DNA of 64,000 bases, from the IMG/VR virus record IMGVR_UViG_3300021411_000006, positions 9,241 through 73,240 of that record; one strand, given 5' to 3'. The notes below the pieces were generated by a model. The model saw nothing but the letters and a program-made list of their open reading frames with translations. It had not been told where the DNA came from and made no database searches. The position numbers and the translations under genes are program-made. Source of the DNA: a virus (Duplodnaviria > Caudoviricetes). Positions 5,810 to 24,822 of this stretch are shown here, piece by piece. Within the stretch, counting starts at the first letter, position 1. Each line of letters begins with the position of its first letter.

Positions 5810-5811
5810 CT

Positions 5812-7444: not shown

Positions 7445-7770
7445 GCCACTATACAAACATATCAACCGAGCCTGTCGCCTACCTGAACGACCACCCGGTA
7501 AAGCCCTGCATGAAGAGCGGATTTTGCTGCACAGTAGCACCCTGTGGGTTTGGTGAATGGAATGAAGACAGGTCCGCCTGTAAGCACCTGTTACCCGCAA
7601 ACGATATTGGTCAGCGGGATTGTGGTCGCTACGACTGGATAAAGGCTAATGTTCCTGACTATGATATATACCCAGGGTTCGGCACTGGCTGTTGTATGCC
7701 GATGTTCAACGTGATGAGAAACAATATTATTAAGACCATAAAAGAAAAGAATGTCACAAACGACAGTTGA
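7441..7770 (+). CDS. Cys-rich protein, YkgJ-like Zn/Fe-cluster candidate
   Basis: PCMKSGFCCTVAPC...ACKHL...CGRYD...GCC. Confidence 0.5.
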   Translation: MSHYTNISTEPVAYLNDHPVKPCMKSGFCCTVAPCGFGEWNEDRSACKHLLPANDIGQRDCGRYDWIKANVPDYDIYPGFGTGCCMPMFNVMRNNIIKTIKEKNVTNDS

Positions 7771-8416: not shown

Positions 8417-8684
8417 TTTTATAAACACCCTCCACCTGCTACGAGTATTAACGAATGAGCGATGCCAAAAGGTCCTACAGATGATATCCGCAAAGCCGAT
8501 GACTGTTACAGAGTTAACAATAAGTATGCGCCTGGATCAATCCGTAGTCTCTCAGTATCTTGCCAGGATGAGAAAGGTAAAACTCGTAAGCACCCGTAGA
8601 GCCGGTAAGAATATTTATTATTCATCTGATAAAGAGGAAGTACCCCGCATTCACAAGTATTGTCTTGATATTTTAAATAAGTAG
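8394..8684 (+). CDS. ArsR/SmtB-family winged-helix regulator (likely ATG at 8394)
   Basis: LRVLTNERCQKVL...MTVTEL...QSVVSQYLARMRKVKLVSTRRAGKNIYY. Confidence 0.85.
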   Translation: MTQPTKIDFINTLHLLRVLTNERCQKVLQMISAKPMTVTELTISMRLDQSVVSQYLARMRKVKLVSTRRAGKNIYYSSDKEEVPRIHKYCLDILNK

Positions 8685-8685
8685 T

Positions 8686-9226
8686 ATGGAAGACCCCAAA
8701 CCTGTGTTTTTTATAATGATCTTCGGCAAAGATCAGGAGCCGTTGATCGATCAATATTTAGTAGAGCTGCAAGACGAGGTTATATCCGTCGTAAAGGATG
8801 ATGGCTTACTCAGTGAGGGCAAAGGCGGCATGGACGTAATCCAGTACCGCATAAAATTCCGAACCTGTTTTGGGCCGTATTTGCTTGGACACAAACAAGG
8901 TTCAGCGAGTGCAGAAAAACTCTTTAATATACTTGCAAATAATACACCGAATGGCAAACGAACAAAATAATACGAAAGTAGACGCTGCGACATTTATCGT
9001 GCAAAAACTGACCAAGCTACAAGACGCTTCTAGGGGTAAAGAACCGTACCCGGAATTTCACCAGGATCTTGGACATCTTGGCTTTGTTATGGGTAATGTT
9101 TTTAGAAAGGCAGAGTTACTCCGCGAGGCCATTGAGCTGATGAGAAGAATTACAACAGACACCAACCCGGTTCAGGTAATGGAGACATATAATAAAGTCA
9201 GCAGCTTTGTCGCTGAACACGGCTAA
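8686..9226 (+). other. Two hypothetical CDS (8686-8970, 8951-9226)
   Basis: Same-strand overlapping ORFs that end the rightward block. Confidence 0.5.
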
Positions 9227-9483
9227 CCAAACAGGCTGAACTTGGCCCGCAGATCTTCCGTAACATCTTCCCGAGTCGCAAACCGCAGTATCTTATATGG
9301 TACACCGCTTTTGGAAGTGATTTCATCCGCCAGCTTTATATAGTCCCGGATTCGCTTCTCATCCGCGGCAACTAGCGGCATCCAGGTGTCACCAAGAAGG
9401 GCACCGATTACCCCTTCATCCCCGTCTTTTGGGTCAATAGCGACAAAGGCAAATACCTCTTTAATTATAAACGGTCCTGGCAT
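9223..9483 (-). CDS. Small hypothetical protein coupled to the integrase
   Basis: TGATG overlap with the integrase stop at 9483. Confidence 0.65.
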   Translation of the reverse strand: MPGPFIIKEVFAFVAIDPKDGDEGVIGALLGDTWMPLVAADEKRIRDYIKLADEITSKSGVPYKILRFATREDVTEDLRAKFSLFG

Positions 9484-10694
9484 CACGATACTTTTGATTG
9501 TTGAAAGAATGGCAAATTTTGAGCGAAGTCGGCAGCGTCTTCCGGGGTGACCTTATTATACTTGGCCAGGGTGCCCGCCACTTTGATCCCGGTCAGCTTC
9601 ATAACGATGGCATCGGCTACCCCGTTTTTCAGCAGGTTGGTAATAAAGCTCCGGCGCGCGGTATGGTTGGTAATCATCTCCCACTTTTGTTTGTCTGTAT
9701 GGACCTTCTTGCCGCCTTTAGTAATACTGTGTATAATCCGTTTGGTGAGGCCAGCGTTTTTGGCGACTACCTTTATCTCCCGGTTAATTTCAGTGTCGGT
9801 GATCTTTGGCGGGAACCCGGCGTACTGTGCAAGAATCTCTTTTACTAGTGGATGAGCTGGGATAACGGCTTTTGTTTTAGTCTTCTTGCTGACAATAGTA
9901 ATACGCTCTTCGTCGTAATGTTTGCTCGCCAGTACCAGCAGATCGCTTACGCGGAGACCGGTATAGCAATCCAGAATAAACCAGTCTCTCGCGACTGCTT
10001 CCCGAGGGGTCGCCTTTTGCATGCGGAGCAGTTTTATTTCCATCTCCGACAGCGCGATGGTTGTCGCCTCTTCAGTAAGCCGCTTAAATTCCTTTGGTAA
10101 AGAAAGGCCGCAATGGTGGCAAAGGGTCTTCCAGTTCTTAATGATAGATCCGATATAGTTGGTCGAAAGCTTTTTGGCCTGGCACCAGAGGATAAATTTT
10201 TTGTAGCTGTCCATGTTCACATCCTGAAGGCGCATTTTTGGCATAAACTCTTCCAGCACCGTTACCTGGAATTTGATACCGCGGATTGTACCAGGAGAAT
10301 ACCTTTCTTCTTTTGGGGTTAATACAATTCCTGCCGTCATTCCTTGTACGATAGTGCGCCAGCGATCAAACAAGTTTTCTCTCTTTTGTTCCCCAGTCGG
10401 TTCGTTTTTTTTTTCAAATAAACGATCCAGCATCTCTTTAAGCCCAGCTTTTGTAACCTCTTGGTCGGAGGTAGCACATTTATCGGCATAAGCGTCGACG
10501 GCCTTAATAACTTTATTCACCCGGCTATTTACGCCCTGTTTGTTACTAACCTGATCCTTTTTATTCCAGTCTACTGGACGTATGGATATATCGGTATAAT
10601 ATTTTAACTTTCCGTCAATGCACTGGAATAGCAACCATATAGAAGTCTCTGTAGTCGCATCGGGCCTTTTAAGGAAGAAAGATACTTTTGCCAT
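9483..10694 (-). CDS. int: Tyrosine integrase (likely start ATG 10694, 403 aa)
   Basis: Catalytic R in YTGLRVSDL, HxxR in HTARRSF, Y in LAKYNKV; arm-binding-like N-terminus MAKVSFFLKRP. Confidence 0.95.
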   Translation of the reverse strand: MAKVSFFLKRPDATTETSIWLLFQCIDGKLKYYTDISIRPVDWNKKDQVSNKQGVNSRVNKVIKAVDAYADKCATSDQEVTKAGLKEMLDRLFEKKNEPTGEQKRENLFDRWRTIVQGMTAGIVLTPKEERYSPGTIRGIKFQVTVLEEFMPKMRLQDVNMDSYKKFILWCQAKKLSTNYIGSIIKNWKTLCHHCGLSLPKEFKRLTEEATTIALSEMEIKLLRMQKATPREAVARDWFILDCYTGLRVSDLLVLASKHYDEERITIVSKKTKTKAVIPAHPLVKEILAQYAGFPPKITDTEINREIKVVAKNAGLTKRIIHSITKGGKKVHTDKQKWEMITNHTARRSFITNLLKNGVADAIVMKLTGIKVAGTLAKYNKVTPEDAADFAQNLPFFQQSKVS

Positions 10695-10875
10695 AGTGGG
10701 TAATTTAAAGTGTTTCGTTTGGGGTAACTGCTGGGGTAACAAATATAGTCGACATTTCTGTATAAAAATCGCTTCTACGTTGATTTATTTTTGTTTAAAA
10801 GGCTTTGCTGTGGTAGGTTTCGGGCAATAAAAGCGACGAGAAAGCAACTAATTAAAGGTGGACATTAGCGCTATT

Positions 10876-10909
10876 CCATTAAGCTCAAGATGATCCAATC
10901 CGGGCTACT
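10876..10909 (+). ncRNA. Fragment resembling the 3' end of Bacteroidota 6S RNA (6S-Flavo-like); candidate att core
   Basis: CCATTAAGCTCAAGATGATCCAATCCGGGCTACT resembles my recollection of 6S-Flavo 3' ends; no 5' half is present; a strong hairpin follows. Confidence 0.45.
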
Positions 10910-10912
10910 TAG

Positions 10913-10953
10913 CAGAAGCGTATGTAACTGATTTACATACGCTTCTGTCTTTT
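10913..10953 (+). terminator. 15-bp perfect hairpin followed by TCTTTT
   Basis: CAGAAGCGTATGTAA-CTGAT-TTACATACGCTTCTG. Confidence 0.75.
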
Positions 10954-11020
10954 AAAATAGGCTGGGGTAGCTATTGGGGTAACTTGATTGGTTTTGTATT
11001 ATATATAAGGTATCTTTAGA

Positions 11021-11100
11021 ACGGCTGGTCTCAGCCGGACTCCAATGCTTCAAGGTCGCGAAGTGATATTGGGCCTCTCGGGTTAACGGGAGGCTTTTTT
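11021..11100 (+). ncRNA. Candidate ~80-nt three-hairpin small RNA ending in an intrinsic terminator
   Basis: CGGCTG/CAGCCG stem; CCAAT-GCTTC/GAAGT-ATTGG stem; GCCTCTCG/CGGGAGGC + T6; promoter-like TATCTTTA at 11011. Confidence 0.4.
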
Positions 11101-11149
11101 CCTAAGGACGGTCAGGTTCTTTCTAGCATATTGTTTTTTCCTGGGAAGC

Positions 11150-11872: not shown

Positions 11873-12454
11873 TCATGCCTCGTTTGTTGTTACCGGAGTC
11901 CCGGCGTTACTGAGGAAATATTTTTTTACCGATACCGGCATCGCGTTATATTTTGGCCTGCGGACGGCAAAGAGTCTTTCCTTTGCGATCCTGGTTATTG
12001 AATACATATTTGACTGGTTGCCGCCCATTACTATAAAGTGGGTCGGACTCTCTCCAATATACATGCCGACATGGTAGCCACCTGGCCTGACAAATACGAG
12101 CGTATCTCCAAGCATTGCCTCCTTTCTATCGATTACTCTCCAGGTGTCAGCATTCACGCTGCTACCTAACTGAGCGAAGGATTTAGCCCGGAGCTTGTCA
12201 TACTTATCTTTCTTCCCGATATCGATGGCTTTACCTGCCCGCAGGCATACTGCATAATGCGCCACGGCGCACCAGCTCGTATCATCGTTCTTATAAATAT
12301 CCCTGACACCGATCTCGTCGGCAAACTTTAGTATCTCCGGATTACTGTGTGCGCCTGGGATCTCTTTTATTCCCAGCAGCTTAATTCCTTCAGTTACCAT
12401 TTTCGGCAGTTCGCCGATAGTGTCGATCCATTTAAAGTTTTCGGGTAAAGGCAT
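11873..12454 (-). CDS. Endolysin, TIGR02594 / NlpC-P60-like peptidase
   Basis: DDTSWCAVA (catalytic Cys), GGYHVGMYIG (His), MGGNQSN; located in the lysis cluster. Confidence 0.85.
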   Translation of the reverse strand: MPLPENFKWIDTIGELPKMVTEGIKLLGIKEIPGAHSNPEILKFADEIGVRDIYKNDDTSWCAVAHYAVCLRAGKAIDIGKKDKYDKLRAKSFAQLGSSVNADTWRVIDRKEAMLGDTLVFVRPGGYHVGMYIGESPTHFIVMGGNQSNMYSITRIAKERLFAVRRPKYNAMPVSVKKYFLSNAGTPVTTNEA

Positions 12455-12508
12455 GTTGTACGGATTAAGGTATAAATAGAAGATTTTTACTTCAACCTCC
12501 GGAAGTTT

Positions 12509-12778
12509 TCATACCGGTTTTTTGCGCTTCTTTTTCTTGACCGAGACGACCGGAGTTACTTTTATAAACTGTTCAACCTTTAACGGGTATTTATCCCAGC
12601 GCTTTGGTGTCCGTAGCTTTTTGCTTGTAGTGGTGACATGGAAATGATGGCACTCAGGGCATTTGTAAAGGCCATACTCCTGGTGCTTTTTTCTATTACC
12701 CAAGCTGGCGATACTCTTTTTCCCGTCCTTGTAGGTCAGGTGCGCGATCTTACCGGTATCGCAGAAGATCTGCTCCAC
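12509..12778 (-). CDS. Small basic Zn-finger protein
   Basis: LYKCPECHHFHVTT motif; Lys-rich tail. Confidence 0.6.
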   Translation of the reverse strand: MEQIFCDTGKIAHLTYKDGKKSIASLGNRKKHQEYGLYKCPECHHFHVTTTSKKLRTPKRWDKYPLKVEQFIKVTPVVSVKKKKRKKPV

Positions 12779-12779
12779 G

Positions 12780-13298
12780 TTAAACCAGTCCTGTTTTCTT
12801 TGCCACTTTCTTACGGATCATAACGAAGATTCCCAGGGCTATCCCGGCACCCATGCCTATGATGATCCAAAGGCGGCGCTGTGCGATCCGCCTCCATTTA
12901 TCCGACTCTATAGTTTTCTGTTCCAGCATACCGATGGCTTTGCCTCGTTCAATACTGCACAGGGATAGTTTCGCCTGGTCCTCCTGGATTACCGTATCGA
13001 CCCGCAGGATTGTGCGGTTAATAACCTGGCCGGGCATCTGCTGGATCGTTTTGATCCAAACTGTGTCACGGGACCGCAGGGTATCACGGATTATGGTGGT
13101 CGTGCTGGAGTCGGCCCAAAGAGTGTCGATCACAATGCTGTCTTTGCCTGCCAAAACCCGCTCTTTTACCGGGTAGGTAATGGCACAGTAAAGAGCGCCG
13201 ATCTCCGGGAACGCGGTTACTGCCCTCCCGTGCTGTACAGCCGCCTTGCGCTGGTTGTAACAGCCGGTAAAGAGTAGTAGGATAAGGAGGTATTTCAT
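12780..13298 (-). CDS. Unimolecular-spanin-like protein
   Basis: N-terminal lipobox LFTG-C plus C-terminal TM helix LWIIIGMGAGIALGIFVMI followed by RKK; next to holin. Confidence 0.75.
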   Translation of the reverse strand: MKYLLILLLFTGCYNQRKAAVQHGRAVTAFPEIGALYCAITYPVKERVLAGKDSIVIDTLWADSSTTTIIRDTLRSRDTVWIKTIQQMPGQVINRTILRVDTVIQEDQAKLSLCSIERGKAIGMLEQKTIESDKWRRIAQRRLWIIIGMGAGIALGIFVMIRKKVAKKTGLV

Positions 13299-13702
13299 AT
13301 AGTGGTATCTGGTTTGGGAGCAAGCGGAGTAGGAGTAATAATTTCTCCCTCTCTTTTAGCTTCTGTTATCACTGGGGATTTTTCGTATCCTTCAGACTTA
13401 GCCGGAGCGGCCAATACGGCAAGCAGCCCAATTACCATCTGTAGTATCAACTGTGCAAGCTGTACGTTTCCGGTTTGTAGCTGGGTAAGATAAGCGGCCA
13501 GAGCATTACCAACTAATCCGGCTATTGAAGCCCATTGACCGCGAAGGTTACGGGCTGCAAAAGATGCCGCGGCAATGATACCTGAAAATACCAGCACCTT
13601 TGTACTGCTTTGTCCGCCCTTAATAAGTTCACTGATAGCAAGGGCAATAGCTGATACCAGGCCAAATATCAACACCTTGTTTTTATTAAAAAACTCTTTC
13701 AT
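13295..13702 (-). CDS. Putative holin
   Basis: Several hydrophobic helices, hydrophilic C-terminus, lysis-cluster position, ATGA overlap. Confidence 0.6.
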   Translation of the reverse strand: MKEFFNKNKVLIFGLVSAIALAISELIKGGQSSTKVLVFSGIIAAASFAARNLRGQWASIAGLVGNALAAYLTQLQTGNVQLAQLILQMVIGLLAVLAAPAKSEGYEKSPVITEAKREGEIITPTPLAPKPDTTI

Positions 13703-13705
13703 AAT

Positions 13706-14005
13706 TTATGGTTTATTGGTTATTAATTGTATTATATCCCTTAGACCAAACCCTCCGAGTATCGACGCTCCGATAAGAAACCAGATCATTCTGTCCCTGA
13801 GTTTTTCAAGGTCGCTTATCCGTTTTTCGTGATTAGCAAACTTTTTTATCATACCACCACTTTCCGGGTCAAGTTCATTACCGGTTAGCAGTGTCAATAT
13901 CTCGTCAACCTTGTCACCAATCGTTATTACCTGATTTTGGATCTGATGTATATCCTGGGACTGAGCAGTTGCCTGTTCCTGTACCTGTTTTTGAGTTTGT
14001 TCCAT
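13706..14005 (-). CDS. Coiled-coil protein with C-terminal TM helix (holin/antiholin or XhlA-like)
   Basis: RISDLEKLRDRMIWFLIGASILGGFGL. Confidence 0.55.
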   Translation of the reverse strand: MEQTQKQVQEQATAQSQDIHQIQNQVITIGDKVDEILTLLTGNELDPESGGMIKKFANHEKRISDLEKLRDRMIWFLIGASILGGFGLRDIIQLITNKP

Positions 14006-14118
14006 TATAGAAAGCCTTTAAATTTTATTTCCTTACGCTGCTTTTCCGGTTTGCACCAGTATTTTGGCGAACAGGAGGTAAGCAGGAAAATTGCCAGAAT
14101 GAAAACCAATTTTATCAT
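14005..14118 (-). CDS. 37-aa lipoprotein (absent from ORF track)
   Basis: MIKLVFILAIFLLTS-CSPKYWCKPEKQRKEIKFKGFL; ATGA overlap upstream and TAATG overlap downstream. Confidence 0.75.
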   Translation of the reverse strand: MIKLVFILAIFLLTSCSPKYWCKPEKQRKEIKFKGFL

Positions 14119-14324
14119 TTCTTCTTCGTTGTGTCCAGCTGCCTGTTTGCTTCAAACGCTATCTTAGCCCGCAACCCCTCCACTTTTTTAGCCGGTAACT
14201 CACCGAGCGCATCATATACTAATTGCATTTCTTCTAAGGAAAAAGTGATTGTTATCTTTTTTTCGTCCTGTAGTCTAAAAGAGAACAGAGAGAACGCAAA
14301 TAGCGCGATGATTACTTTTTTCAT
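14115..14324 (-). CDS. Small fibre-associated protein with a signal-peptide-like leader
   Basis: MKKVIIALFAFSLFSF leader, then ITFSLEEMQLVYDALGELPAKKVEGLRAKI. Confidence 0.65.
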   Translation of the reverse strand: MKKVIIALFAFSLFSFRLQDEKKITITFSLEEMQLVYDALGELPAKKVEGLRAKIAFEANRQLDTTKKK

Positions 14325-14349
14325 ATACTTTGTTTGTTTAGTTTAAAAA

Positions 14350-14793
14350 TTATTGACCTTCCTTGTTCATCAATCTGCCCAGCCTCCGGCGGGCTAGATA
14401 TGTTACTGAGTAAGCCGCCTCAACCGCTGCGATCCTGGATGCTACTATTGGATGAGTAATCGCCTGCAAAACATTTTTGGGGTTACCTCCTAAAGCGTCA
14501 GCTTCTCCAGCATGCACCTGCCGGATGATCGTGTACCACCTCACCAACATGCCGCCAGGTATAGAGTCAAGCGTCACGTTGTCGCTGTTTTGTTTGCCTG
14601 CACTTTTTAGCCGGATAAAGCGTAGGTATTTCATCTCTATACTGTCAGTTGAACCAATGTAATAGCTGGTCATATAGTCAAGATCCCCCGACTTGAATGT
14701 AATATTCCGGACGATGGAGGTGTCCAGATTATTTTGCGACTTCGCCAGGGTGTAAGCCAGTATAAAAGGAATAAAGAGAAATAGCTTTTTCAT
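14350..14793 (-). CDS. Exported protein, possible fibre chaperone
   Basis: Signal peptide MKKLFLFIPFILAYTLAKS|Q. Confidence 0.65.
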   Translation of the reverse strand: MKKLFLFIPFILAYTLAKSQNNLDTSIVRNITFKSGDLDYMTSYYIGSTDSIEMKYLRFIRLKSAGKQNSDNVTLDSIPGGMLVRWYTIIRQVHAGEADALGGNPKNVLQAITHPIVASRIAAVEAAYSVTYLARRRLGRLMNKEGQ

Positions 14794-14806
14794 TATTGTT
14801 ATTTTA

Positions 14807-16036
14807 TTAGTTTGCTAATCTTATTTTCATTTTTGAGCCGATCAATACGGTTGATGTTCCAGACGTTACTTTCAGGTGCTGAATAGAAATTGTAGCCGTT
14901 CCTGAACCTCGCGTAGTTACCCAGCCGTGTATATACATCATCCCGCTTTGCCCGGAGGTTAATAGCCTGGCGGCAGTACCTGTAGCAGAGGCGACAATAT
15001 TTTCTGTAGTGATCGTCGTTCCGGTTGAATTACCTATTAATAGCGCCTGAACAACAGCAGCGCCTCCAGTGCCTCCGCCTGTTATTGCGTATTGGCAACC
15101 AGTTGTTACCGCAGAGGTGGTTACGTTTAACCAAGCCTCAACTTCGTAGAGCGTGGAGTTTGACAGCGTTCCGGAGGTAAGGCCAGTGATATCCGTCAGT
15201 GCCTGGCCGGTTGTTGTTGCGTTAGATCCGGTTACAGCGAATGTTGTCCAGTTCTCCCGTGTGTTTTGAGAAACCCAGTTTGTGCCATCGGAAATAAGTG
15301 TATTGCCGGTGCCGGTGCCTACTGGCCAGAGTTCTGTCGAGGCTATCCAGTTTGTGCCATCGGATACGATTATTTTTCTGGTCGTAGCACTGGCATTCGG
15401 AAATGTCGGAGTTGATAATACATAGTTTGTGCCATCGCTAAGTAGCACCTTATTCGCCGTCGCTCCAGCGGATGTTGGGATCGTCGATGTCGATGGGATG
15501 TAATTTGTGCCATTACCAACGATGAACTTTCCTGTAGCCGCTGCCGTACCTATTGTAAAGCCTGTTGTAAAGTCTGGAGTGGTCGCGCCATTGAATAGTA
15601 ATACGCCGGTTCCATTCTCGTCCGTTACCGCCGAACGTAAGTTAGCCGATGATGGTGTAGCTATCCATGTGCCAACATTCGAACCAGGGGTAATCCCTGA
15701 CCATGTGGTTAAATCACCATCAAAAGCCTGAACATCGGTGCCAATAGTGAGACCGAGATCCGTTTTGACATTCGTATAACTTCTGTGGGTGACACTGTTG
15801 TCAGCGTTCGCCCTTATAAATCCAAGTGCGGACGGATTGGAAATGGTAAAGATCGCAGAACCAAGCGTAGTGCCGCCCAGGTTTGCCCGTGCGGTTGCAG
15901 GCGTGCCGACATCGGATAAATTATTTGCCACCTGCAAACCCTCTGACTTTACCATTACAGAGTTTGCAGTAGTAACCCTTTGCGAAAAGGCAAACACTGG
16001 AAACAATATTAGGAGGTGGACGAATATTTTTTTCAT
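14807..16036 (-). CDS. Tail-fibre-like protein with signal peptide (409 aa)
   Basis: MKKIFVHLLILFPVFAFS|Q; fibre motifs ANNLSDV...ARANLG and IGTDVQAFDGDL; four (S/G)(D/N)GTN repeats; Thr/Gly-rich. Confidence 0.75.
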   Translation of the reverse strand: MKKIFVHLLILFPVFAFSQRVTTANSVMVKSEGLQVANNLSDVGTPATARANLGGTTLGSAIFTISNPSALGFIRANADNSVTHRSYTNVKTDLGLTIGTDVQAFDGDLTTWSGITPGSNVGTWIATPSSANLRSAVTDENGTGVLLFNGATTPDFTTGFTIGTAAATGKFIVGNGTNYIPSTSTIPTSAGATANKVLLSDGTNYVLSTPTFPNASATTRKIIVSDGTNWIASTELWPVGTGTGNTLISDGTNWVSQNTRENWTTFAVTGSNATTTGQALTDITGLTSGTLSNSTLYEVEAWLNVTTSAVTTGCQYAITGGGTGGAAVVQALLIGNSTGTTITTENIVASATGTAARLLTSGQSGMMYIHGWVTTRGSGTATISIQHLKVTSGTSTVLIGSKMKIRLAN

Positions 16037-19000
16037 AAACTGTATGCATTATATTTTAATTGATATTGTGCGTTCCAATCAGTAGAACTAACACTGTCAG
16101 CAGTAACTCTTATCCTTAAATCTCCTCCGCTGGCATCGACAGTCCATGTTGCTGTTGTCCAAGTCTCTCTATAATCGGGTTGTTCGTCTACAATCTGTAA
16201 TACCGTTACCGTTCCGCTATCATTCTTCCAGTGAACAAACTTCTTCCCGGTCAAGCCTTTAGAATTATTACCCGTCTCTATACCTATAAGTGTCACTACC
16301 AAAACGCCTCTTGTTCCCGAAGGGGTAGATATGGTTCCTAGTGTAGTAACTGAAGTTGTAGTAGTATTTGTCGTAAAATTATCCCAAGCATCCCACCCCT
16401 TAATACTTACAACCTCGCTGGTTATATCTATACCAATACCGCCAGTATAAACAGTTCCGGTAGGGACTACCCAAGTCCCATCTTTACGCAAAAATTGTGT
16501 AGTTGTGCTTCCCCCGCTTGCTACTGGCACCAATCCTTTAGCTGAAGTTGAAAACACATCAAGTAAAGACGTTGCTTGCGTACCCGTCAACTCTTCCATA
16601 TCCCCCGAACCGCCTGTAATTCTTCCCATAACCCTATTTGTAGCAGAAATGTTTTGCATTTTAGCATAAGTAACTACATCGTTATCTATTGTCCATACTG
16701 CCCCGCTACTGCTTACCGTTATATCTCCTTTGTCTCCATCGCTAACCCCACCAGACAGGCTTTCTATCTTATCCCGGACGGCGTTTTTGGTAGGAACCTC
16801 TAAAGAGCCGTTCCAGGCGGTTGCGTCATAAACCTCATCCGGGACTATAACATCAGATAAAAATGTAGCAACACCCGTAGAACCGTTTATTGTAAGGGAT
16901 GCTGTCGAAGTGTTATCAATAGAAAAAATCAAATCTTTTGAATTTGTAAATACAAAGAACTTATTAGGAAGTGATGATGCACTTGGATTGGCATAACCCA
17001 TTCCGCCTGCTCTTACACTACTATTATCTAAAAAATCAAATGAAACAAATCCAGATGCGTGTAAATTTTGGAATTGCCCAATAGCTCTGGATACCTGGTT
17101 TGACTGATATAAAAATTCATACTTAGTTGAAGAGGAACCAGAAACTTGTAAGAGAAAGTCCCCAGCATCTGAAGAAGTTCCTATACGAATCTCGTCCTCG
17201 CTTGCATCTGAAAACAATATTGTTTTTGTAGCTGTGTTAATAGTTACATCGCCTGCTGAAGTGCTAAATGTATTAAAGATAGCCCCACCGTCTACCTCAA
17301 TGGTTGCGCTTGCGGTTTGCCCTCCTATATATGGTGTATTGCTGAAAAAAGTTCCTGTAGCACTAATTTGTTGTGGATAATATACTCCAGCAACAGATAA
17401 TAGGGTATTAGCAGTTGACGATATTACCAATGTTCCGCAACAAGCGGCAGAGATAGTCCCGATACCATTTACATTGATTGAAGTTGTTGAAAGCTCCCCT
17501 GTGGGGGGGTCATATTTAAAAGCAGCATTATTACTCAATATCCCAGCTGAATCGTAAAGCACTCTATAAGTAGCACTACTTGAAATAGTTGTAACACCTT
17601 TGGTAAGGCTGGCTGCCGGGATATCCTGCCATGTTGGTACTGACGTTGTTCCCGTCGAAGTCCAAACCTTGCCGGAAGTTCCAAAAGCTTGCTCCTGGAC
17701 ATCTCCAGATCCGTCGGAGTAAAATGCTCTCCATGCTGTTTGCGAAACAAATTGGGTCAAGTTTGTAAAGCCTCCGCCACCAGTGGCAGTAAGAACCCCA
17801 GCTGTTAAATCCAGGCCTGACCCAATAGTTATATAAGCTACCTTTCCCTGGTCAGTACCGCCTTGCTTCCAGGCCAGCAAAGTGTTTTCATTCGTGCCAG
17901 TCCTTACAGAGTCTATCCATAATTTACCCAAGAAAGGCTTTATTCCTAACGAGTCCCCCCAAATTTCAATAGACGATGTAGGCGCGCCGGAAGCGGTAGC
18001 GTGTTGGTTTCCTAAATGCAAAACGCCACTTCCGAACTGAATTATTTGATTATAATTACTATCAACGTTCTGGAAGTATGGGTTTAGTGCTGCCCACCAA
18101 ATTTCTGAAAAAAGGAACCCACCATTTGATTCTTGATACGAATTAAAATTAGTCGGGCGAATCCTCACGTAACTATTCGTTGCAGAGTTTGTAACGTCAA
18201 GGTTAAAACCAGCCTGGGCAATAGTTGTATTTACTGTAAGTGTACCGCCGAGTTTTATGCCGATCTGGTTTGTAGTCGCGCTATCTGGGGTAAGACCGTT
18301 GGTTGCGGTAAATGTTTTAATGTTATTGGTGTTCGGTATAACCCACCTGTATCCTGAACCTACGTTGGAGTTATAGTAAGATCCCAGCGTTTCTATTTTA
18401 TCCCTTATGGCATCTTTTGTGGGCACTTCATTATTTCCATTCCAGGTGGTTGCGTTATAGGCATCAGCCGGTACAGTTACATCACCGGTAAATAATCCTT
18501 CGCCTACAACATCGAGTGCAACGGTAGGGGTTTGGTTATTGATTCCAAACTTCATTGTTAATGCTCCGTTCTTGATATAGGAAAGGTTTGAACCGTCTTC
18601 TATTGTAAGTGCAGTACCATTATTTGAACCCGATATGTCCCCTATTGCGTACTGGTTACTTGGTTTATCTATAGAAAAATAAGTGTCCCCTCCGTTTTTT
18701 AACCTGAAATAATACGAGCCTAAGCCAAAAATAGTTGTGTTCTGTAAAAATGTTCCGCCCAAAGCGATGTCGTTTACGGTCTTGGTAAGACCATTTGATG
18801 CGGTCACCGCGCTTCCGCCACTGACATAAGTCATCGTCGGGATAGCATACCTTATTAATGCCCCATGAAGGTTAGCTGATCCACCTGGGCTAAGTGTATC
18901 GTAATAGTTATTGATAAAGAGCCTGGACCCGTCCGTAACGATTTCATTAGGCTGGTCAAAAAGAGTGTCTAATAGGAATTTATACTGCTCGTTTGTCTCC

Positions 19001-20211
19001 GGGTTTAACCGAAGGATAGTCCCCTGGGGATGACTATTGAAACACGCCCATATATAGCTGCCATAAAAAAAAGTCCCAAAAGAGCCGGTTGCTGTTATGC
19101 CGGTCGTTATAATCGTTTCTGACAAGTCGGCTTTTTTGACTTTTGCTAGTGTAGTATTTGACTCATTCGCTATCCACAAATAATCTCCGGCAATGGCAAA
19201 ATCGTCCGTAGTTGTACTGTTGGTTAAAGTTGCTGAGACGACAACAGTTAAAGTCGCGGGGTCGATTTTATAAACCTTTTTCGTGCCTGACCGGGCTGTT
19301 ACATATAGATACGTACCATCATACCTTATCGCGTGCATGAAGTTACTCCCGGAAATATAGGCGGATGTTCTTACATAGGTCGTTAGATTAATCTTGTGAA
19401 CTCGTCCGGGGTTCCCCCCGTCGACCAAGTACAAAGTATTTATACCATCGGTACACAGGCTTTGAATTTCGTTGTAATCGGTCTGTATAGTATCAATGAT
19501 GGTTTGCGCCATTGTCACCGGGTCTATCTCTATCACATAGCTTTCACCAAGACCGTTACCCTCGTTATTCGCGACTGTGTAGACCTTATCCTTACCGTTT
19601 ACATATACAATATCACGAGCATCCTGATAGTCGGAAGAGTCGGGGTCGTAAGCAGAGGCATCTAGTGTTATTGTATCAATATCAGCTAAGTCATCCGGGT
19701 TATTGAACCTGTAAACGTGAGGGGGACTCCACATATCAGAACCCCATATCTTTCCTTTTGCATAAATCAAACCGTGTATTGTAGCATACGGACGAGGTGT
19801 TCTAATAATCTGTTTGTTGTCATCATGGTAAACCAACCCCAAAGATTGAGCTTGGGCATTATTATTCCTTCTCCAATCGCTTATCCAGGATTGGCTAACC
19901 GAATCGGCGGAGCTTGCACTTCCCAGCGATAATTCGGACCAGTCACTGTTTGTTATTCCACCAGCCAGGCTGTAGATCTTCAAACTGTCAGTAACATATA
20001 CCCACATGCCGACCTTTCTCCGAAGGCTGGTGATCGCGTTCCTTTCCACGATTGTCGATACAACCCGGAAACCACCGCGCTGCAAACTGTCGAGATGAGT
20101 CGGGTATGATGCAACCCCGATAGTATTCAGGTGGTCAGCTATTACCACCCCTGGCTGCGAAAAAGCAACTCCAGAAACAAGTAAAAATATAGCGAGAAGT
20201 ATCTTTTTCAT
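16033..20211 (-). CDS. Large tail-fibre/receptor-binding-like protein with signal peptide (1392 aa)
   Basis: MKKILLAIFLLVSGVAFS|Q; N-terminal GGFRVV...ERNAI...RRKVGMWVYV module, propeller-like region, fibre module DGDKGDITVSSSGAVWTIDNDVVTYAKMQN. Confidence 0.8.
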   Translation of the reverse strand: MKKILLAIFLLVSGVAFSQPGVVIADHLNTIGVASYPTHLDSLQRGGFRVVSTIVERNAITSLRRKVGMWVYVTDSLKIYSLAGGITNSDWSELSLGSASSADSVSQSWISDWRRNNNAQAQSLGLVYHDDNKQIIRTPRPYATIHGLIYAKGKIWGSDMWSPPHVYRFNNPDDLADIDTITLDASAYDPDSSDYQDARDIVYVNGKDKVYTVANNEGNGLGESYVIEIDPVTMAQTIIDTIQTDYNEIQSLCTDGINTLYLVDGGNPGRVHKINLTTYVRTSAYISGSNFMHAIRYDGTYLYVTARSGTKKVYKIDPATLTVVVSATLTNSTTTDDFAIAGDYLWIANESNTTLAKVKKADLSETIITTGITATGSFGTFFYGSYIWACFNSHPQGTILRLNPETNEQYKFLLDTLFDQPNEIVTDGSRLFINNYYDTLSPGGSANLHGALIRYAIPTMTYVSGGSAVTASNGLTKTVNDIALGGTFLQNTTIFGLGSYYFRLKNGGDTYFSIDKPSNQYAIGDISGSNNGTALTIEDGSNLSYIKNGALTMKFGINNQTPTVALDVVGEGLFTGDVTVPADAYNATTWNGNNEVPTKDAIRDKIETLGSYYNSNVGSGYRWVIPNTNNIKTFTATNGLTPDSATTNQIGIKLGGTLTVNTTIAQAGFNLDVTNSATNSYVRIRPTNFNSYQESNGGFLFSEIWWAALNPYFQNVDSNYNQIIQFGSGVLHLGNQHATASGAPTSSIEIWGDSLGIKPFLGKLWIDSVRTGTNENTLLAWKQGGTDQGKVAYITIGSGLDLTAGVLTATGGGGFTNLTQFVSQTAWRAFYSDGSGDVQEQAFGTSGKVWTSTGTTSVPTWQDIPAASLTKGVTTISSSATYRVLYDSAGILSNNAAFKYDPPTGELSTTSINVNGIGTISAACCGTLVISSTANTLLSVAGVYYPQQISATGTFFSNTPYIGGQTASATIEVDGGAIFNTFSTSAGDVTINTATKTILFSDASEDEIRIGTSSDAGDFLLQVSGSSSTKYEFLYQSNQVSRAIGQFQNLHASGFVSFDFLDNSSVRAGGMGYANPSASSLPNKFFVFTNSKDLIFSIDNTSTASLTINGSTGVATFLSDVIVPDEVYDATAWNGSLEVPTKNAVRDKIESLSGGVSDGDKGDITVSSSGAVWTIDNDVVTYAKMQNISATNRVMGRITGGSGDMEELTGTQATSLLDVFSTSAKGLVPVASGGSTTTQFLRKDGTWVVPTGTVYTGGIGIDITSEVVSIKGWDAWDNFTTNTTTTSVTTLGTISTPSGTRGVLVVTLIGIETGNNSKGLTGKKFVHWKNDSGTVTVLQIVDEQPDYRETWTTATWTVDASGGDLRIRVTADSVSSTDWNAQYQLKYNAYSL

Positions 20212-21275
20212 TAGTTGACAGAATTACAGTTGACTGTAACGCTTGCGAACACATTATTAGAAGTGTAGATAAGATAGTTTTGGACATACCCCGAAGCATT
20301 CGTAACGGATACGGTCGATGATGTAAACGCCCCTATGCTTTCAATTCCAGAGATTACAATACTGGTCAATGCCCCGTAAGAGCTGGGGTAAGCATAAAAA
20401 ATATATTTATCTGATCCTGACACTACAATACTGAATGTTGACTTTGCTTTTGAGGTAGTCAGCTCCCCACCTCCACCAGCGGCGGAAACGATGTCAGCGC
20501 TTACAGGTGGGTTAGTTGTTGTATATCCCCAGTACCGCTTAGGATAAAAGGTGAAGGCAACCGAGGAAGATGCTGTCTTTGCGTCGCTCGTCGTTACCAG
20601 GTTTGTAAAAGAAGTATTAGTATTCCTGGTAACGCTGGTAGATTTTGTTCCCGATACGGTGCCAGGGGCAGCGGGCTGAGAGAACGACTGGTTTACGCCA
20701 TCGACATTAATAGTTGATAGCGTGGCGGTCGATGCCTGTCTCCCGCCAGTCCAGTTTAAAGTAACGGATAACGCAGCGCCCGCACTCATAAGCTCTAAAT
20801 CAAAAGCCGTGGCAGTCGATGCACTATAGGTTGCGGTAAGCGCCGAGGTTGGTACCTGACTGGGATAAAGAAGCGCTTCTATTGTCGAGTTTAACGTAAT
20901 GGTCCCCAGGTTTACTCCAGTTACAGCAGTGAAATCTCTCGTTATGGGTCTATTACCGTCGAATGATGTAGATCCTGAACCTGACCATCTTGTTTTTTGT
21001 CGAACATATATTGCGCTGTCTTTAATCTGATAAACAAACATCCCTTGCCTGGGAGCAACCACATTCGCCGTATCCTGTACGCGTGGCAACCACAAAGCCT
21101 TTGTAGTCGCACTATCTCCAAGCTGGAGATGGACTGAAGTATTGGGGACCGTTGCAGCGGGTATGCCGATACCCATCCGACCGACCCAGGTGGAATAACC
21201 ATCACGGTTAATGTACTGGGCCTGCGATCCTATCGCAGCAAACAACACTAAAAGTAATATGAGTATCTTTTTCAT
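20211..21275 (-). CDS. Fibre-like virion protein with signal peptide (start ATG 21275, 354 aa)
   Basis: MKKILILLLVLFAAIGSQA|Q; TTKALWLPRV...PRQGMFVY motif; C-terminal YIFYAYPSSYGALTSI domain; TAATG overlaps at both ends. Confidence 0.75.
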   Translation of the reverse strand: MKKILILLLVLFAAIGSQAQYINRDGYSTWVGRMGIGIPAATVPNTSVHLQLGDSATTKALWLPRVQDTANVVAPRQGMFVYQIKDSAIYVRQKTRWSGSGSTSFDGNRPITRDFTAVTGVNLGTITLNSTIEALLYPSQVPTSALTATYSASTATAFDLELMSAGAALSVTLNWTGGRQASTATLSTINVDGVNQSFSQPAAPGTVSGTKSTSVTRNTNTSFTNLVTTSDAKTASSSVAFTFYPKRYWGYTTTNPPVSADIVSAAGGGGELTTSKAKSTFSIVVSGSDKYIFYAYPSSYGALTSIVISGIESIGAFTSSTVSVTNASGYVQNYLIYTSNNVFASVTVNCNSVN

Positions 21276-22453
21276 TATACTGTATATTCTATTCGTAACC
21301 ATTGGTCGGTAAACATTGTGCCTCCGTACTTGAACTTCCTGGGAGCGCTGCCGGTAACCACGATAAATTTTCCTGTCGCTGGTGTGTCACCATCAGCGCC
21401 ACTTGAAAACTGCCGGAGTATTCCGTCCATCCATATATTTGAAATGACCGCACCGTTAAGCGCGACCAGTGTTACTTCGGTAACATCAGCAGAAAGGGTA
21501 TAATTATAAAATAGGCTCGTCCCGCCGCCGCCAGTATAAGCACTGAGATCGTATGGGCTTATAACAGCGCCGCGGTCAACATCGTGAGCGCAGTGGGTAA
21601 TGTTTAAGATCTCTTCCAGCAAATCTTCAGCGTCATCAGCATCGCCGATTCGAAGTTTATGTATAAGGTGGTCATACCTGGCAGTCGCTTTCTGATATTC
21701 GCATTCCAGTGGTCCGCAGGGAGTGCAAACCTGGGCAGCGTCGAGAGCCGCTTTTTGATCGTTCAGACAGTGGATGATATCATTAACAGTCGGCGGGGTG
21801 TCGGCAGTTGTTGCTATTGAGTCGCTGTAGCGGTCAACCAGGGTAAGGAAAGTATAAGTTGGATGGCTGTAGGAAACGTCACGCTGGTAAGTGATCGCGT
21901 ACTCGCTATCGTAGTAATTCCCTAAATGTACCAGGTCAAAATCGTCAGCGCTTCCATTCAGTGTCACCGGAGTACCCATACCGGCACCGATACCAAAATC
22001 TGCCTGCCATGCCACAGTATTACTATTCAGCGTCCACCCAGCTTGGGCAAAATTGGTGTTGTCCCGGTAAAAGAGCGAAGGCGTGAATACGTCAAAATCT
22101 TCCTCCAGGTCCAGCGTCTTCCGGGTATAAGACAGAGTGAAAGTTTTTGTTATTGTTGTAGGCGTGTAATCGGGATGATCGATCTCGTAAGTAATTACAT
22201 AGTCCCCGCACTGTGGATTACCAACGCTGTTGAGCCGCAAGGCCTGGCTATGTGGCTGTAATGCTCCGGAGCTATAAACGATGTCAGTAAAATCTCCGGC
22301 GATCTGTACGCCGTCAGGTTGTAGCACAGTAATCTTTCCCACCAGTGAGGCACTAACTCCGACTGGGTAGTTATCGGGATCAGTGAGAATTATCTGGTTG
22401 GTTACATAATTTAATGCAACGTTTAATGCCTGGTATGCTGAAAGATCTGCCAT
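21275..22453 (-). CDS. Virion protein without signal peptide (possible fibre hub/adaptor)
   Basis: First gene of the coupled fibre run; Cys cluster HCL...VCTPCGPLEC. Confidence 0.55.
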   Translation of the reverse strand: MADLSAYQALNVALNYVTNQIILTDPDNYPVGVSASLVGKITVLQPDGVQIAGDFTDIVYSSGALQPHSQALRLNSVGNPQCGDYVITYEIDHPDYTPTTITKTFTLSYTRKTLDLEEDFDVFTPSLFYRDNTNFAQAGWTLNSNTVAWQADFGIGAGMGTPVTLNGSADDFDLVHLGNYYDSEYAITYQRDVSYSHPTYTFLTLVDRYSDSIATTADTPPTVNDIIHCLNDQKAALDAAQVCTPCGPLECEYQKATARYDHLIHKLRIGDADDAEDLLEEILNITHCAHDVDRGAVISPYDLSAYTGGGGTSLFYNYTLSADVTEVTLVALNGAVISNIWMDGILRQFSSGADGDTPATGKFIVVTGSAPRKFKYGGTMFTDQWLRIEYTV

Positions 22454-23441: not shown

Positions 23442-23473
23442 AAAAAGAGTGATCGTTTCCGATCACTCTTTTA
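23442..23473 (-). terminator. Terminator after the capsid gene
   Basis: AAAAAGAGTGATCG-TTTC-CGATCACTCTTTTT, 14-bp stem with a GAAA loop on the minus strand. Confidence 0.85.
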
Positions 23474-23487: not shown

Positions 23488-24822
23488 TTAGGAATTGACT
23501 TTCAGCCTGCCGAACTGCTCGGCACCCAGGACCTCGGGGGCCTGGTAGGTAAGCCAGTTGCACACCCAGTTTGCGGTTTCTCCACTTGGAGTAACCGGGG
23601 AGGCAGCGCCGCTATGGAACTCAGCCCATATATCGTTGCCCTGGTTGGTTTGGCTATTGGCAATCGGGTGCTTCATGTAACGCATGCCGATACGGTTTTC
23701 AAACCCGGCAGCGCTATCAGTAGCGGATTGCGCTTTTACCTTACCTGTAGGAATGAAGTACAGGTACTTCTTAATATCGGCTGCGATCAGCTCAGGATGA
23801 TCCAGGATAGGCAAACGCATTTTCTGGAACGTACCGTTACTGTATTCGACCTTTTGGACGTTAAAGTTTAACTCCTTACCGTCTACGTTCAGCATTGCTG
23901 AAGTAACGCCGGAGCTGTTAACGCCTTTCCAGTAGTCGTCCCACCGGCGAGAAGCAGCGGTTGAACCGGCAACCATGAAATCAAGATCTGACTTCTTAGC
24001 TACCATTAGGTCAACAAACTGGCCCAGGTCATCGGCATCAAATACGCCGAGTACGTCAACCGCATCGTCAACACCGAGTGAAGAGATGTATTGGTCGAGG
24101 CCACGGCAAAACTGCATGTTACCGCCGCCCTGGGGATCAAGGATCGCAGAAGTGGCGGAAGTAAATACGCTCACGGAAATCTTGCCCTGAATACAGGCGG
24201 CGTTAACTTCCGCTTTGTGTTTCAGATATTTTTCAATAAGATCCTTCTGGTAGAAATAATTCTTACCATCCCAAGAAACTTCGGTCGTGGTCATCCTATT
24301 CAGGTCTGACTCGATGTTTGTTTCGCGGAAAATCTGGATCAGGTTATATTGCTTGGTGAGATCCCGGCGCTGGTTGCTCCTGCTGATTGAGCTTTCACCA
24401 ACGGCATTGGCAAAGAATACGATGTTTTGGCCAGTGGTGTGTACCAGGTTACCGCCGTCCACCGATTTAAAGGTTACGTTGTCGCTTGATCCGGGTGTAA
24501 TTGCGGATACATAGCCTACGCTACCATCGGTAAAGCGTACCTCGTCGTTAAGCCTGGCATTACCGGATGTACCGGTCGTCAGGTCAACTACAACAGTTGC
24601 TGTTCCTGAGCCGGTAACTGAACCGGTTGAAACACCAACTACCCACAGGGGTTTGTTTACATAGTTATGGAATATTGTTTGGGTGGAAGGACGGTAACGC
24701 CCGAAAGCGCCCATAAGATCGGTCAGGCCGATTGTGTTTTGGATGTCAACCACTTTTGGGAGGATCTCCCTTGTGTCGAGTAAAGCAATGGCGGACACAT
24801 ACGCCTTATTATTTTCAGCCAT
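23488..24822 (-). CDS. Major capsid protein
   Basis: 444 aa; portal-scaffold-capsid order; followed by a strong terminator. Confidence 0.8.
   Translation of the reverse strand: MAENNKAYVSAIALLDTREILPKVVDIQNTIGLTDLMGAFGRYRPSTQTIFHNYVNKPLWVVGVSTGSVTGSGTATVVVDLTTGTSGNARLNDEVRFTDGSVGYVSAITPGSSDNVTFKSVDGGNLVHTTGQNIVFFANAVGESSISRSNQRRDLTKQYNLIQIFRETNIESDLNRMTTTEVSWDGKNYFYQKDLIEKYLKHKAEVNAACIQGKISVSVFTSATSAILDPQGGGNMQFCRGLDQYISSLGVDDAVDVLGVFDADDLGQFVDLMVAKKSDLDFMVAGSTAASRRWDDYWKGVNSSGVTSAMLNVDGKELNFNVQKVEYSNGTFQKMRLPILDHPELIAADIKKYLYFIPTGKVKAQSATDSAAGFENRIGMRYMKHPIANSQTNQGNDIWAEFHSGAASPVTPSGETANWVCNWLTYQAPEVLGAEQFGRLKVNS

What the first reader, a model, noticed from the sequence alone, without database searches (positions are those of the whole stretch)
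14005..21275. An entire tail-fibre module carries export signals: candidate periplasmic fibre assembly system
Seen: six consecutive genes between the head and lysis genes each start with an export leader: MKKILILLLVLFAAIGSQA|Q (354 aa), MKKILLAIFLLVSGVAFS|Q (1392 aa), MKKIFVHLLILFPVFAFS|Q (409 aa), MKKLFLFIPFILAYTLAKS|Q (147 aa), MKKVIIALFAFSLFSF (69 aa, less canonical) and lipoprotein MIKLVFILAIFLLTS-C (37 aa). The starts are supported by TAATG/ATGA overlaps at 21275, 20211, 16036, 14118 and 14005 and by gaps of only 13 and 25 nt elsewhere. The three large products carry phage fibre motifs, and no other long fibre gene is in the window. Capsid, portal, rings, nozzle and the upstream 392-aa gene have no leader. 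Established: tailed-phage virions assemble in the cytoplasm, and Gln at +1 is the hallmark of Bacteroidota signal peptidase I substrates. Inference: fibres are exported, folded in the periplasm and docked onto fibre-less particles only after holin opening. That could hide them from cytoplasmic tail-sensing defences or give access to periplasmic modification. Alternative: a late-expressed surface adhesin or decoy.
Basis: partly seen in the sequence, partly recalled or inferred. Interest (0 to 1): 0.93.

Follow-up and report, generated by a model that had tools for sequence, protein, structure and literature searches.

The report
Phage tail-fibre module carrying export signals
A complete soil phage of Bacteroidota puts its host's own secretion signal on every fibre-like protein it encodes; signal-bearing proteins in the same genomic position were detected in purified particles of two cultured marine phages, so part of this tailed virus probably matures outside the cytoplasm where the particles are built.

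Summary
Six consecutive minus-strand late genes (14005-21275) begin with export-type leaders. Four (354, 1392, 409 and 147 aa) are canonical Sec leaders with a small residue at -1 and Gln at +1. One (69 aa) looks like a signal anchor. One (37 aa) has a lipobox.

The window is most of a complete 73.2-kb temperate podophage from a soil metagenome. It is a distant relative of Cellulophaga phage phi18:3.

The leaders are conserved in homologues of all four larger proteins. Gln(+1) is invariant in the 147-aa family. A high-GC phage has the same layout with AXA-type leaders.

The module recurs as a cassette in otherwise distant phages. Its N-terminal domains are conserved and its distal parts are swapped, as in real fibres. 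The 409-aa protein ends in a TNF-like lectin knob.

In cultured phi18:3 (gp085-087) and phi10:1 (gp091-094), non-homologous proteins in the same slot also carry Q-rule leaders. Their records annotate them from virion MS/MS.

Most likely these are Sec-exported receptor-binding fibres plus helpers that join the particle after the holin opens the membrane. That last step is inferred.

I found no paper describing this. This scan has met the same oddity in many other phages.

The parts
20211..21275 (-). 354-aa protein with a Sec leader (cleavage predicted after residue 19, Gln at +1). Probable proximal or adaptor fibre subunit.
   Evidence: Translation. TAATG overlap with the leaderless 392-aa gene. 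Homologues in L029 (83% identity) and L028 (61%) keep a leader and Gln(+1). In them the first ~85 mature residues are replaced and the last ~250 conserved. Residues 235-350 resemble a Tunturiibacter phage tail fibre protein.
16033..20211 (-). 1392-aa long fibre with a Sec leader (cleavage predicted after residue 18, Gln at +1).
   Evidence: Translation. Residues 41-100 hit phrog_24134 'virion structural protein'. The same small domain opens a leaderless 1177-aa protein of Bacteroides phage DAC16. Residues 556-616 match a Maribacter phage Colly_1 tail protein. Residues 1-100 are 80-83% identical, leader included, in three proteins of 907-1564 aa whose remainder differs.
14807..16036 (-). 409-aa fibre with a Sec leader (cleavage predicted after residue 18, Gln at +1), shaft repeats and a C-terminal TNF-like lectin knob.
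   Evidence: Translation. It has 549 homologues; 57 of the 119 listed have leaders, and 44 of those have a small residue then Gln. AlphaFold model: residues 262-409 form a beta-sandwich, pLDDT 80-90. Foldseek matches are BC2L-C and PLTL lectins, Chlamydia pgp3, Bdellovibrio fibre tips and cyanophage fibres.
14350..14793 (-). 147-aa exported accessory protein of unknown fold. It is a conserved companion of leader-bearing fibres.
   Evidence: Translation. It has 18 representatives among 1.8 billion proteins. All full-length ones have a leader. Gln(+1) is invariant, and three Asp-Ser/Thr-x motifs are conserved. It lies beside leader-bearing fibre genes in L003, L020, L021, L025 and L028. The model has pLDDT 88 with no match in PDB or the Atlas.
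14115..14324 (-). 69-aa protein: hydrophobic N-terminus without a good cleavage site, then a ~50-residue helical part with a Lys-rich end. Signal-anchored helper or i-spanin-like.
   Evidence: Translations. Proteins of 84-85 aa with the same build (leader, helical part, Lys-rich end) occupy the same position in L003, L023 and L028, without detectable sequence similarity. L025 has a 112-aa leader-bearing protein there that lacks the Lys-rich end.
14005..14118 (-). 37-aa lipoprotein (lipobox L-T-S-C; mature part 22 residues).
   Evidence: Translation. ATGA overlap with the 69-aa gene and TAATG overlap with the first lysis-cassette gene.
21275..22453 (-). Leaderless 392-aa late protein, translationally coupled to the first leader-bearing gene. 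Function unknown; the Atlas model is weak and its nearest matches are mostly Ig-like or beta-sandwich surface proteins.
   Evidence: No family hit.
11873..14005 (-). Lysis cassette directly downstream. It holds a 99-aa tail-anchored protein, a 135-aa multi-pass holin candidate, a 172-aa protein with a lipobox plus a C-terminal membrane helix (one-piece spanin-like), an 89-aa basic protein, and a 193-aa TIGR02594/NlpC-P60-like endolysin.
   Evidence: Translations. TIGR02594, E 5e-16. phrog_1259 tail lysozyme, E 6e-18.
23443..23472 (.). 13-bp-stem palindromic hairpin with A and T runs, between the capsid gene and the 295-aa gene. Likely a partial terminator that lowers expression of the genes downstream, including the fibre module.
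   Evidence: No comparable minus-strand terminator lies between 22453 and 14005.

Best explanation
The module encodes the phage's receptor-binding gear. It holds a proximal subunit (354 aa), a long fibre (1392 aa), a short fibre with a sugar-binding TNF-like knob (409 aa), and small helpers (147 aa, perhaps 69 aa). Each is made as a precursor with a host-type Sec signal peptide.

Proposed pathway:
1. Late in infection the precursors are exported across the inner membrane.
2. Signal peptidase I cuts them, exposing Gln. The host glutaminyl cyclase turns Gln into pyroglutamate.
3. They fold and trimerise in the periplasm, possibly receiving host O-glycans.
4. Capsids and short tails are built in the cytoplasm as usual.
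5. The two pools meet when the holin, encoded immediately downstream, opens the inner membrane. The fibres then dock on the particles before or during lysis.

Shown here:
- the leaders and their conservation;
- the fibre nature of the proteins;
- the cassette-like spread of the module.

Supported by analogy only: presence in virions. This rests on MS/MS-based annotation of leader-bearing proteins in the same slot of Cellulophaga phages phi18:3 and phi10:1.

Inferred: export itself, cleavage, and the time and place of docking.
For: (1) Canonical leaders sit on four consecutive late genes, and there is only one other in the genome.

(2) Selection keeps the leader:
- 44 of 57 leader-bearing homologues of the 409-aa protein have a small residue at -1 and Gln at +1, at positions 15-25.
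- Gln(+1) is invariant in the 147-aa family, while the hydrophobic core varies freely.
- Homologues of the 354-aa and 1392-aa proteins keep the leader.

(3) The leader type tracks the host. A 58% GC phage (L019) has two leader-bearing fibre-like genes just before its holin, with Ala-x-Ala cleavage sites instead of Gln.

(4) The proteins have fibre features:
- They share domains with annotated tail fibre or tail proteins of cultured phages. The 1392-aa N-terminal domain also opens a leaderless, unannotated 1177-aa protein of Bacteroides phage DAC16.
- The 409-aa protein has a TNF-like lectin tip.
- N-terminal domains are conserved and distal parts swapped.
- The first ~85 mature residues of the 354-aa protein change with the phage backbone, while the rest stays 83% identical.

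(5) The genes are translationally coupled to leaderless structural genes, with no terminator between them.

(6) No other fibre candidate exists in the 73-kb genome.

(7) Cultured analogues exist:
- phi18:3 is a podophage of the same broad lineage (TerL 32% identical, E 1e-68; portal, nozzle and ring also match).
- Its gp085-087 carry leaders with Gln(+1) and lie just before the lysis genes.
- The same holds for gp091-094 of siphophage phi10:1.
Against: - No trained signal-peptide predictor was run.
- No data exist for this phage on export, cleavage or virion content.
- The Cellulophaga proteins are not homologous to the window's, so they support the principle only. MS of gradient-purified virions can also pick up co-purifying envelope material.
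- Attachment of fibres after membrane opening has no precedent that I could find, and it would have to be fast.
- Some phages combine leader-bearing small fibres with a leaderless tailspike (L020), so the leader-bearing set need not be the only receptor-binding gear.
- The same knob occurs on a 3364-aa chromosomal secreted protein of Pedobacter (L012), so such fibres can work without a virion.
- The O-glycosylation motif is only about 1.5-fold above expectation in the four proteins and is absent from the 409-aa protein.
- Leader-plus-N-terminal domains are shared between a siphophage and a podophage. A direct tail-docking role for those domains therefore needs an adaptor.
Confidence: 0.5

Rival explanations
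1. The proteins are exported but are not parts of the particle. They act on the infected cell's envelope. Possible roles are lectin-like fibres that mask or bind the receptor glycan (superinfection exclusion, or protecting progeny from debris as T5 Llp does), adhesins, or decoys. The particle would recognise its host with its nozzle or with the 392-aa protein.
For: Leaders imply an extracytoplasmic site of action. Chromosomal secreted proteins carry the same knob (L012, L013). The structural neighbours of the knob include secreted bacterial lectins and Bdellovibrio surface fibres. Published readings of phage Q-rule and T9SS cargo genes go this way (PMC10367356; PMC7468147). L020 has a leaderless tailspike beside leader-bearing proteins.
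Against: It would leave this phage with no recognisable fibre. Three large, costly fibre proteins sit in the virion operon, coupled to structural genes. The conserved-N-terminus, swapped-tip architecture is typical of virion fibres. Same-slot leader-bearing proteins of phi18:3 and phi10:1 are annotated from virion MS/MS.
Confidence: 0.25
2. The leader is not used for export during infection. The hydrophobic N-terminus would stay on the protein, or be removed by another protease, and would serve assembly in the cytoplasm. It could act as a membrane tether that concentrates fibres at the inner face of the membrane, or as a buried helix in the fibre base.
For: All tailed-phage assembly known so far is cytoplasmic (textbook knowledge). 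The 69-aa protein has a leader without a cleavage site. No experiment shows export for any of these proteins.
Against: A docking helix should be conserved in sequence, yet here only the signal-peptide properties are conserved. An invariant Gln at +1 makes sense only if signal peptidase I cuts there and the periplasm-facing cyclase acts (PMC5837995, PMC10653852). The cleavage motif switches to Ala-x-Ala in a high-GC phage.
Confidence: 0.15
3. The 69-aa and 37-aa genes are a small two-part spanin (inner-membrane anchored subunit plus outer-membrane lipoprotein) that belongs to the lysis cassette, not to the fibre module.
For: An N-terminal membrane helix with a helical periplasmic part is followed by a lipobox gene with an ATGA overlap. 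The pair directly abuts the lysis genes.
Against: Both are very short. A one-piece spanin-like protein (lipobox plus C-terminal membrane helix) is already encoded at 12780-13298. Small leader-bearing helical proteins recur directly after leader-bearing fibre genes in other phages, without a lipoprotein partner.
Confidence: 0.3

Closest known systems
Tail-end structural proteins of Cellulophaga phages phi18:3 (gp085-087, NC_021794.1) and phi10:1 (gp091-094, NC_021802.1)
   Same: They are consecutive late genes just before the lysis cassette. Each has a Sec-type leader ending in a small residue followed by Gln. They include fibre and glycan-directed proteins. Leader plus N-terminal domain is conserved while the distal part is swapped between phages. 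phi18:3 has the same podovirus gene set as the window.
   Different: There is no detectable sequence similarity to the window's proteins. They are marine rather than soil phages. Their virion association rests on MS/MS notes in the records. In the papers I could search, nobody comments on the leaders.
Bacteroidota signal peptidase I substrates obeying the Q-rule (PMC5837995, PMC10653852), including five unexplained Q-rule genes in Porphyromonas gingivalis prophages (PMC10367356)
   Same: The leader architecture and the Gln at +1 are the same, and the genes are phage-encoded.
   Different: The published phage cases are genes of unknown function read as host-envelope modifiers. They are not a whole fibre module in the virion operon.
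Bdellovibrio bacteriovorus fibre proteins whose tip domains are solved as 8okw and 8okh
   Same: They include beta-sandwich tips similar in fold to the knob of the 409-aa protein. From my own knowledge, not checked here, they are trimeric, phage-fibre-like mosaic adhesins made by a bacterium.
   Different: They are chromosomal genes of a predator and are not part of a virus. The similarity is in fold only (TM by target about 0.2-0.5).
Classical tail fibre modules of tailed phages (T7 gp17, T4 long fibres with their chaperones)
   Same: They share the position at the end of the structural operon, the conserved proximal and variable distal parts, and small helper genes downstream.
   Different: The classical fibres and chaperones have no signal peptide and assemble in the cytoplasm.
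Phage-encoded T9SS cargo genes ('Cryophage', PMC7468147)
   Same: They are variable, phage-encoded proteins of a Bacteroidota phage addressed to a host secretion route.
   Different: Those carry a C-terminal T9SS sorting domain. None was found here with Pfam or NCBIfam.

Membership tests
Sec / signal peptidase I substrates of Bacteroidota (Q-rule) | Positively charged n-region followed by an uncharged hydrophobic core of about 8-15 residues at the extreme N-terminus | tested here: met
   The 354-, 1392-, 409- and 147-aa proteins meet it under my own rule. No trained predictor was available.
Sec / signal peptidase I substrates of Bacteroidota (Q-rule) | Small residues at -3/-1 and Gln at +1 | tested here: met
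   All four proteins have it. It is present in 44 of 57 leader-bearing homologues. Gln is invariant in the 147-aa family.
Sec / signal peptidase I substrates of Bacteroidota (Q-rule) | Actual export, cleavage and pyroglutamate formation | not testable with these tools
   This needs N-terminal proteomics or reporter fusions.
Phage tail fibres / receptor-binding proteins | Sequence or fold similarity to known fibre proteins | tested here: met
Phage tail fibres / receptor-binding proteins | Conserved proximal domain with exchanged distal domains among relatives | tested here: met
Phage tail fibres / receptor-binding proteins | Trimeric fibrous assembly | tested here: inconclusive
   The monomer model gives a low-confidence shaft and a confident TNF-like knob, a fold that is usually trimeric. 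No trimer model was made.
Phage tail fibres / receptor-binding proteins | Physical presence on the virion | not testable with these tools
   The only evidence is the analogy with MS/MS-annotated leader-bearing proteins of phi18:3 and phi10:1.
Type IX secretion cargo | C-terminal T9SS sorting domain | tested here: not met
   There is no Pfam or NCBIfam hit even at loose thresholds. The C-terminus of the 409-aa protein is a TNF-like knob.
Bacterial lipoproteins (signal peptidase II) | Lipobox with invariant Cys after a hydrophobic core | tested here: met
   The 37-aa protein has L-T-S-C. The 172-aa protein has F-T-G-C.
Two-component spanins (Rz/Rz1 type) | Inner-membrane anchored subunit with a periplasmic coiled coil, plus an adjacent or overlapping outer-membrane lipoprotein gene, in the lysis cassette | tested here: inconclusive
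   The 69/37-aa pair fits the architecture and the overlap. However, both are very short, and a one-piece spanin-like gene is also present.

The most novel reading that the evidence does not exclude
Some tailed phages assemble in two compartments. Heads and tails are built in the cytoplasm. The whole receptor-binding apparatus is exported by Sec, capped with pyroglutamate, perhaps glycosylated by the host, folded in the periplasm with its own exported helpers, and added to the particle only when the holin breaches the inner membrane.
Probability: 0.4. Interest if true: 0.9.

Novelty: new variant of a known kind. Interest (0 to 1): 0.75.

Why it matters
Every textbook pathway for tailed phages finishes the particle in the cytoplasm. 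If fibres are routed through the periplasm, several things follow:
- Lysis timing and particle completion become coupled.
- Virions could carry host-made modifications (pyroglutamate, O-glycans) that affect stability and host range.
- Fibre genes could be exchanged with the host's own secreted adhesins.
- Signal peptides on fibre genes become a host-phylum marker for uncultured phages.

The question is directly testable, because cultured Cellulophaga phages with the same feature and existing virion proteomics are at hand.

Tried and rejected
- Pfam, PHROGs and NCBIfam gave almost nothing for the six proteins.
- The search for related loci with the 392-aa protein and with the capsid protein found no close relatives in viral or genome collections.
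- tblastn of the 409-aa protein against GenBank phages found nothing.
- The cultured phages elemoE, Colly_1 and DAC16 have related domains or fibre-like genes, but without leaders. The trait is therefore not universal in Bacteroidota phages.
- The 392-aa protein is not similar to the protein in the same position in L019. Its Atlas neighbours are uninformative.
- The 147-aa protein's confident model has no match in PDB or the ESM Atlas.
- The 69-aa protein has no detectable similarity to the small proteins in the same position in L003 or L028.
- Complex prediction with residues 120-354 of the 354-aa protein (three copies) and residues 20-98 of the 1392-aa protein (three copies) gave no verdict.
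- O-glycosylation motif count: 17 observed against 11.5 expected in the four proteins. This is too weak to use as evidence. Only the 172-aa lipoprotein is clearly enriched, 5 against 0.5.
- Sequencing runs: two DNA runs of one soil-metagenome sample hold the stretch, and no RNA holder is listed.
- Literature searches for signal peptides on tail fibres found no paper describing it. The paper behind the Cellulophaga proteomics is not held in the library.
- I considered and rejected a wrong start codon, because the homologues start at the same place. I also rejected T9SS cargo, because there is no sorting domain.

Full report
**What the window is.** The genome that holds the window is a single 73,240-bp contig whose ends repeat about 115 bp, so it is a complete phage genome. 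It encodes:
- a large terminase (28310-30340);
- a portal (26049-28307);
- an SU10-type capsid protein (23488-24822);
- ring proteins, a 1251-aa nozzle-like protein, a 3064-aa cargo-like protein and an integrase.

There is no tape measure or sheath gene, so it is a temperate short-tailed phage. Two DNA runs of one soil-metagenome sample hold it.

Its nearest cultured relatives are flavobacterial podophages. Against Cellulophaga phage phi18:3 the terminase is 32% identical (E 1e-68). The portal, the nozzle and one ring protein also match.

Six consecutive minus-strand genes between the capsid genes and the lysis genes start with export-type leaders.
- Four proteins (354, 1392, 409 and 147 aa) have Lys-Lys, a 12-14-residue hydrophobic core, a small residue at -1 and Gln at +1.
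- The 69-aa protein has the hydrophobic core but no good cleavage site.
- The 37-aa protein has a lipobox.

In my ORF set for the whole genome (112 ORFs), only one other gene has a Q-rule leader and only one other has a lipobox. None of the head, ring, nozzle or cargo proteins has a leader. Four of five such leaders on four neighbouring genes has a chance of about 1e-4. I had no trained signal-peptide predictor, so the calls rest on my own rule.

**The leaders are kept by selection.**
- Of the 119 listed homologues of the 409-aa protein, 57 have a charged n-region plus a hydrophobic core. Of these, 44 have a small residue then Gln at positions 15-25.
- The leaderless homologues begin with ordinary fibre N-termini.
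- The 147-aa protein belongs to a small family, 18 representatives among 1.8 billion proteins. Every full-length member has a leader. Gln(+1) is one of only five invariant columns, while the hydrophobic core varies freely.
- Homologues of the 354-aa and 1392-aa proteins keep the leader too.
- In a 58% GC phage contig (L019), two fibre-like genes just before the holin have leaders with Ala-x-Ala cleavage sites instead of Gln. The leader therefore follows the host's peptidase preference.

A conserved docking helix would behave differently: its sequence, not its physical character, would be conserved.

**The proteins are fibres.**
- The 1392-aa protein opens with a small domain found in PHROG families of virion proteins. 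The same domain sits at the leaderless N-terminus of a 1177-aa protein of Bacteroides phage DAC16.
- An internal motif of the 1392-aa protein matches a Maribacter phage tail protein.
- The 354-aa protein resembles a Tunturiibacter phage tail fibre protein.
- A leader-bearing relative of the 409-aa protein (P0067) shares an internal stretch with tail fibre proteins of Pseudomonas and E. coli phages.
- The model of the 409-aa protein has a confident C-terminal beta-sandwich. That knob matches TNF-like lectins, Chlamydia pgp3, Bdellovibrio fibre tips and cyanophage fibre domains.

The first 100 residues of the 1392-aa protein, leader included, are 80-83% identical in proteins of 907, 1178 and 1564 aa that otherwise differ. 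This is the classical fibre pattern.

**The module moves as a cassette.**
- Contigs L028 and L029 have a terminase only 23% identical to the window's. They nevertheless carry the 354-aa protein (61% and 83% identity) followed by the long fibre.
- L028 also carries the 147-aa protein (53%) and a small anchor-like protein. All have leaders and lie just before the lysis genes.
- In the 354-aa protein, the first ~85 mature residues are replaced between backbones while the remaining 250 stay conserved. This is what one expects of an adaptor whose proximal end fits a particular tail.
- Other contigs (L001, L003, L020, L023, L025 and MW202444) show the same habit in phages of different build.

**Are they on the particle?** This cannot be decided for this phage. 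Earlier reports of this scan pointed to Cellulophaga phages, and I checked the records myself.
- In phi10:1, gp091-094 all start with a leader ending in a small residue and Gln.
- In phi18:3, which shares the window's podovirus gene set, gp085-087 do the same and lie directly before the lysis genes.
- These proteins are not homologous to the window's, so the support is by analogy.
- They too share leader-plus-N-terminal domains between a siphophage and a podophage.
- I could not read the source paper.

**How it most likely works.** The proposed steps are:
1. export by Sec;
2. cleavage by signal peptidase I;
3. pyroglutamate capping;
4. folding in the periplasm with exported helpers;
5. docking on cytoplasm-built particles once the holin opens the membrane.

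The lysis cassette follows immediately. It holds a multi-pass holin candidate, a one-piece spanin-like lipoprotein and a TIGR02594-type endolysin. Only the sequence features are shown; export, cleavage and docking are inferred.

Rival explanations remain open:
- The proteins may be exported but act on the host envelope.
- The leader may not be used for export during infection.
- The two smallest genes may be a spanin pair.

The host O-glycosylation motif is only weakly enriched in the four proteins. Three such motifs are, however, conserved in the 147-aa family.

**Novelty.** Published work notes Q-rule leaders on five unexplained prophage genes of Porphyromonas (PMC10367356). It also notes T9SS cargo genes in one phage (PMC7468147). 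I found no paper on signal peptides on tail fibres. This scan has reported the same oddity on many other phage genomes, so this window is one more, unusually complete, example.

Noticed in passing
window 12780-13298 (-): A 172-aa protein has a lipobox at the N-terminus and a membrane helix at the C-terminus, the build of a one-piece spanin. It has five Bacteroidota O-glycosylation motifs against 0.5 expected. A homologue with the same start lies in the lysis region of L025.
   Followed up: partly
window 59942-60199 (+): An 85-aa protein with a Q-rule leader lies outside the late operon, among plus-strand genes. It is a candidate exported moron or exclusion protein.
   Followed up: no
window 42374-46129 (-): The 1251-aa nozzle-like protein matches two separate virion proteins of Cellulophaga phage phi18:3 (gp114 and gp115) end to end. 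It is therefore a fused form.
   Followed up: partly
L012 (Pedobacter hiemivivus contig), 350-10444: A 3364-aa chromosomal protein with a Q-rule leader ends in the same knob domain as the 409-aa phage fibre. It has no phage genes nearby. This suggests domain exchange between phage fibres and host secreted adhesins.
   Followed up: no
L016 (Nitrospirae MAG), 8894-11148: A Mu-like prophage has two leader-bearing proteins (529 and 222 aa), the first with the same knob domain. They are inserted right after the capsid gene.
   Followed up: no
L019, 10001-13180: A 58% GC podophage-like contig has two fibre-like genes with Ala-x-Ala type signal peptides directly before the holin and endolysin. Leader-bearing fibres are therefore not confined to Bacteroidota.
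   Followed up: partly
alignment A2 (147-aa family): Three Asp-Ser/Thr-x motifs are conserved, two of them fitting the Bacteroidota O-glycosylation motif in most members. They occur in a protein whose confident model has no structural neighbour.
   Followed up: partly
window 49699-50559 (-): A 286-aa protein with GroES-like parts lies at the head of the tail module. The cultured relatives elemoE and phi18:3 also encode GroES-like proteins.
   Followed up: no
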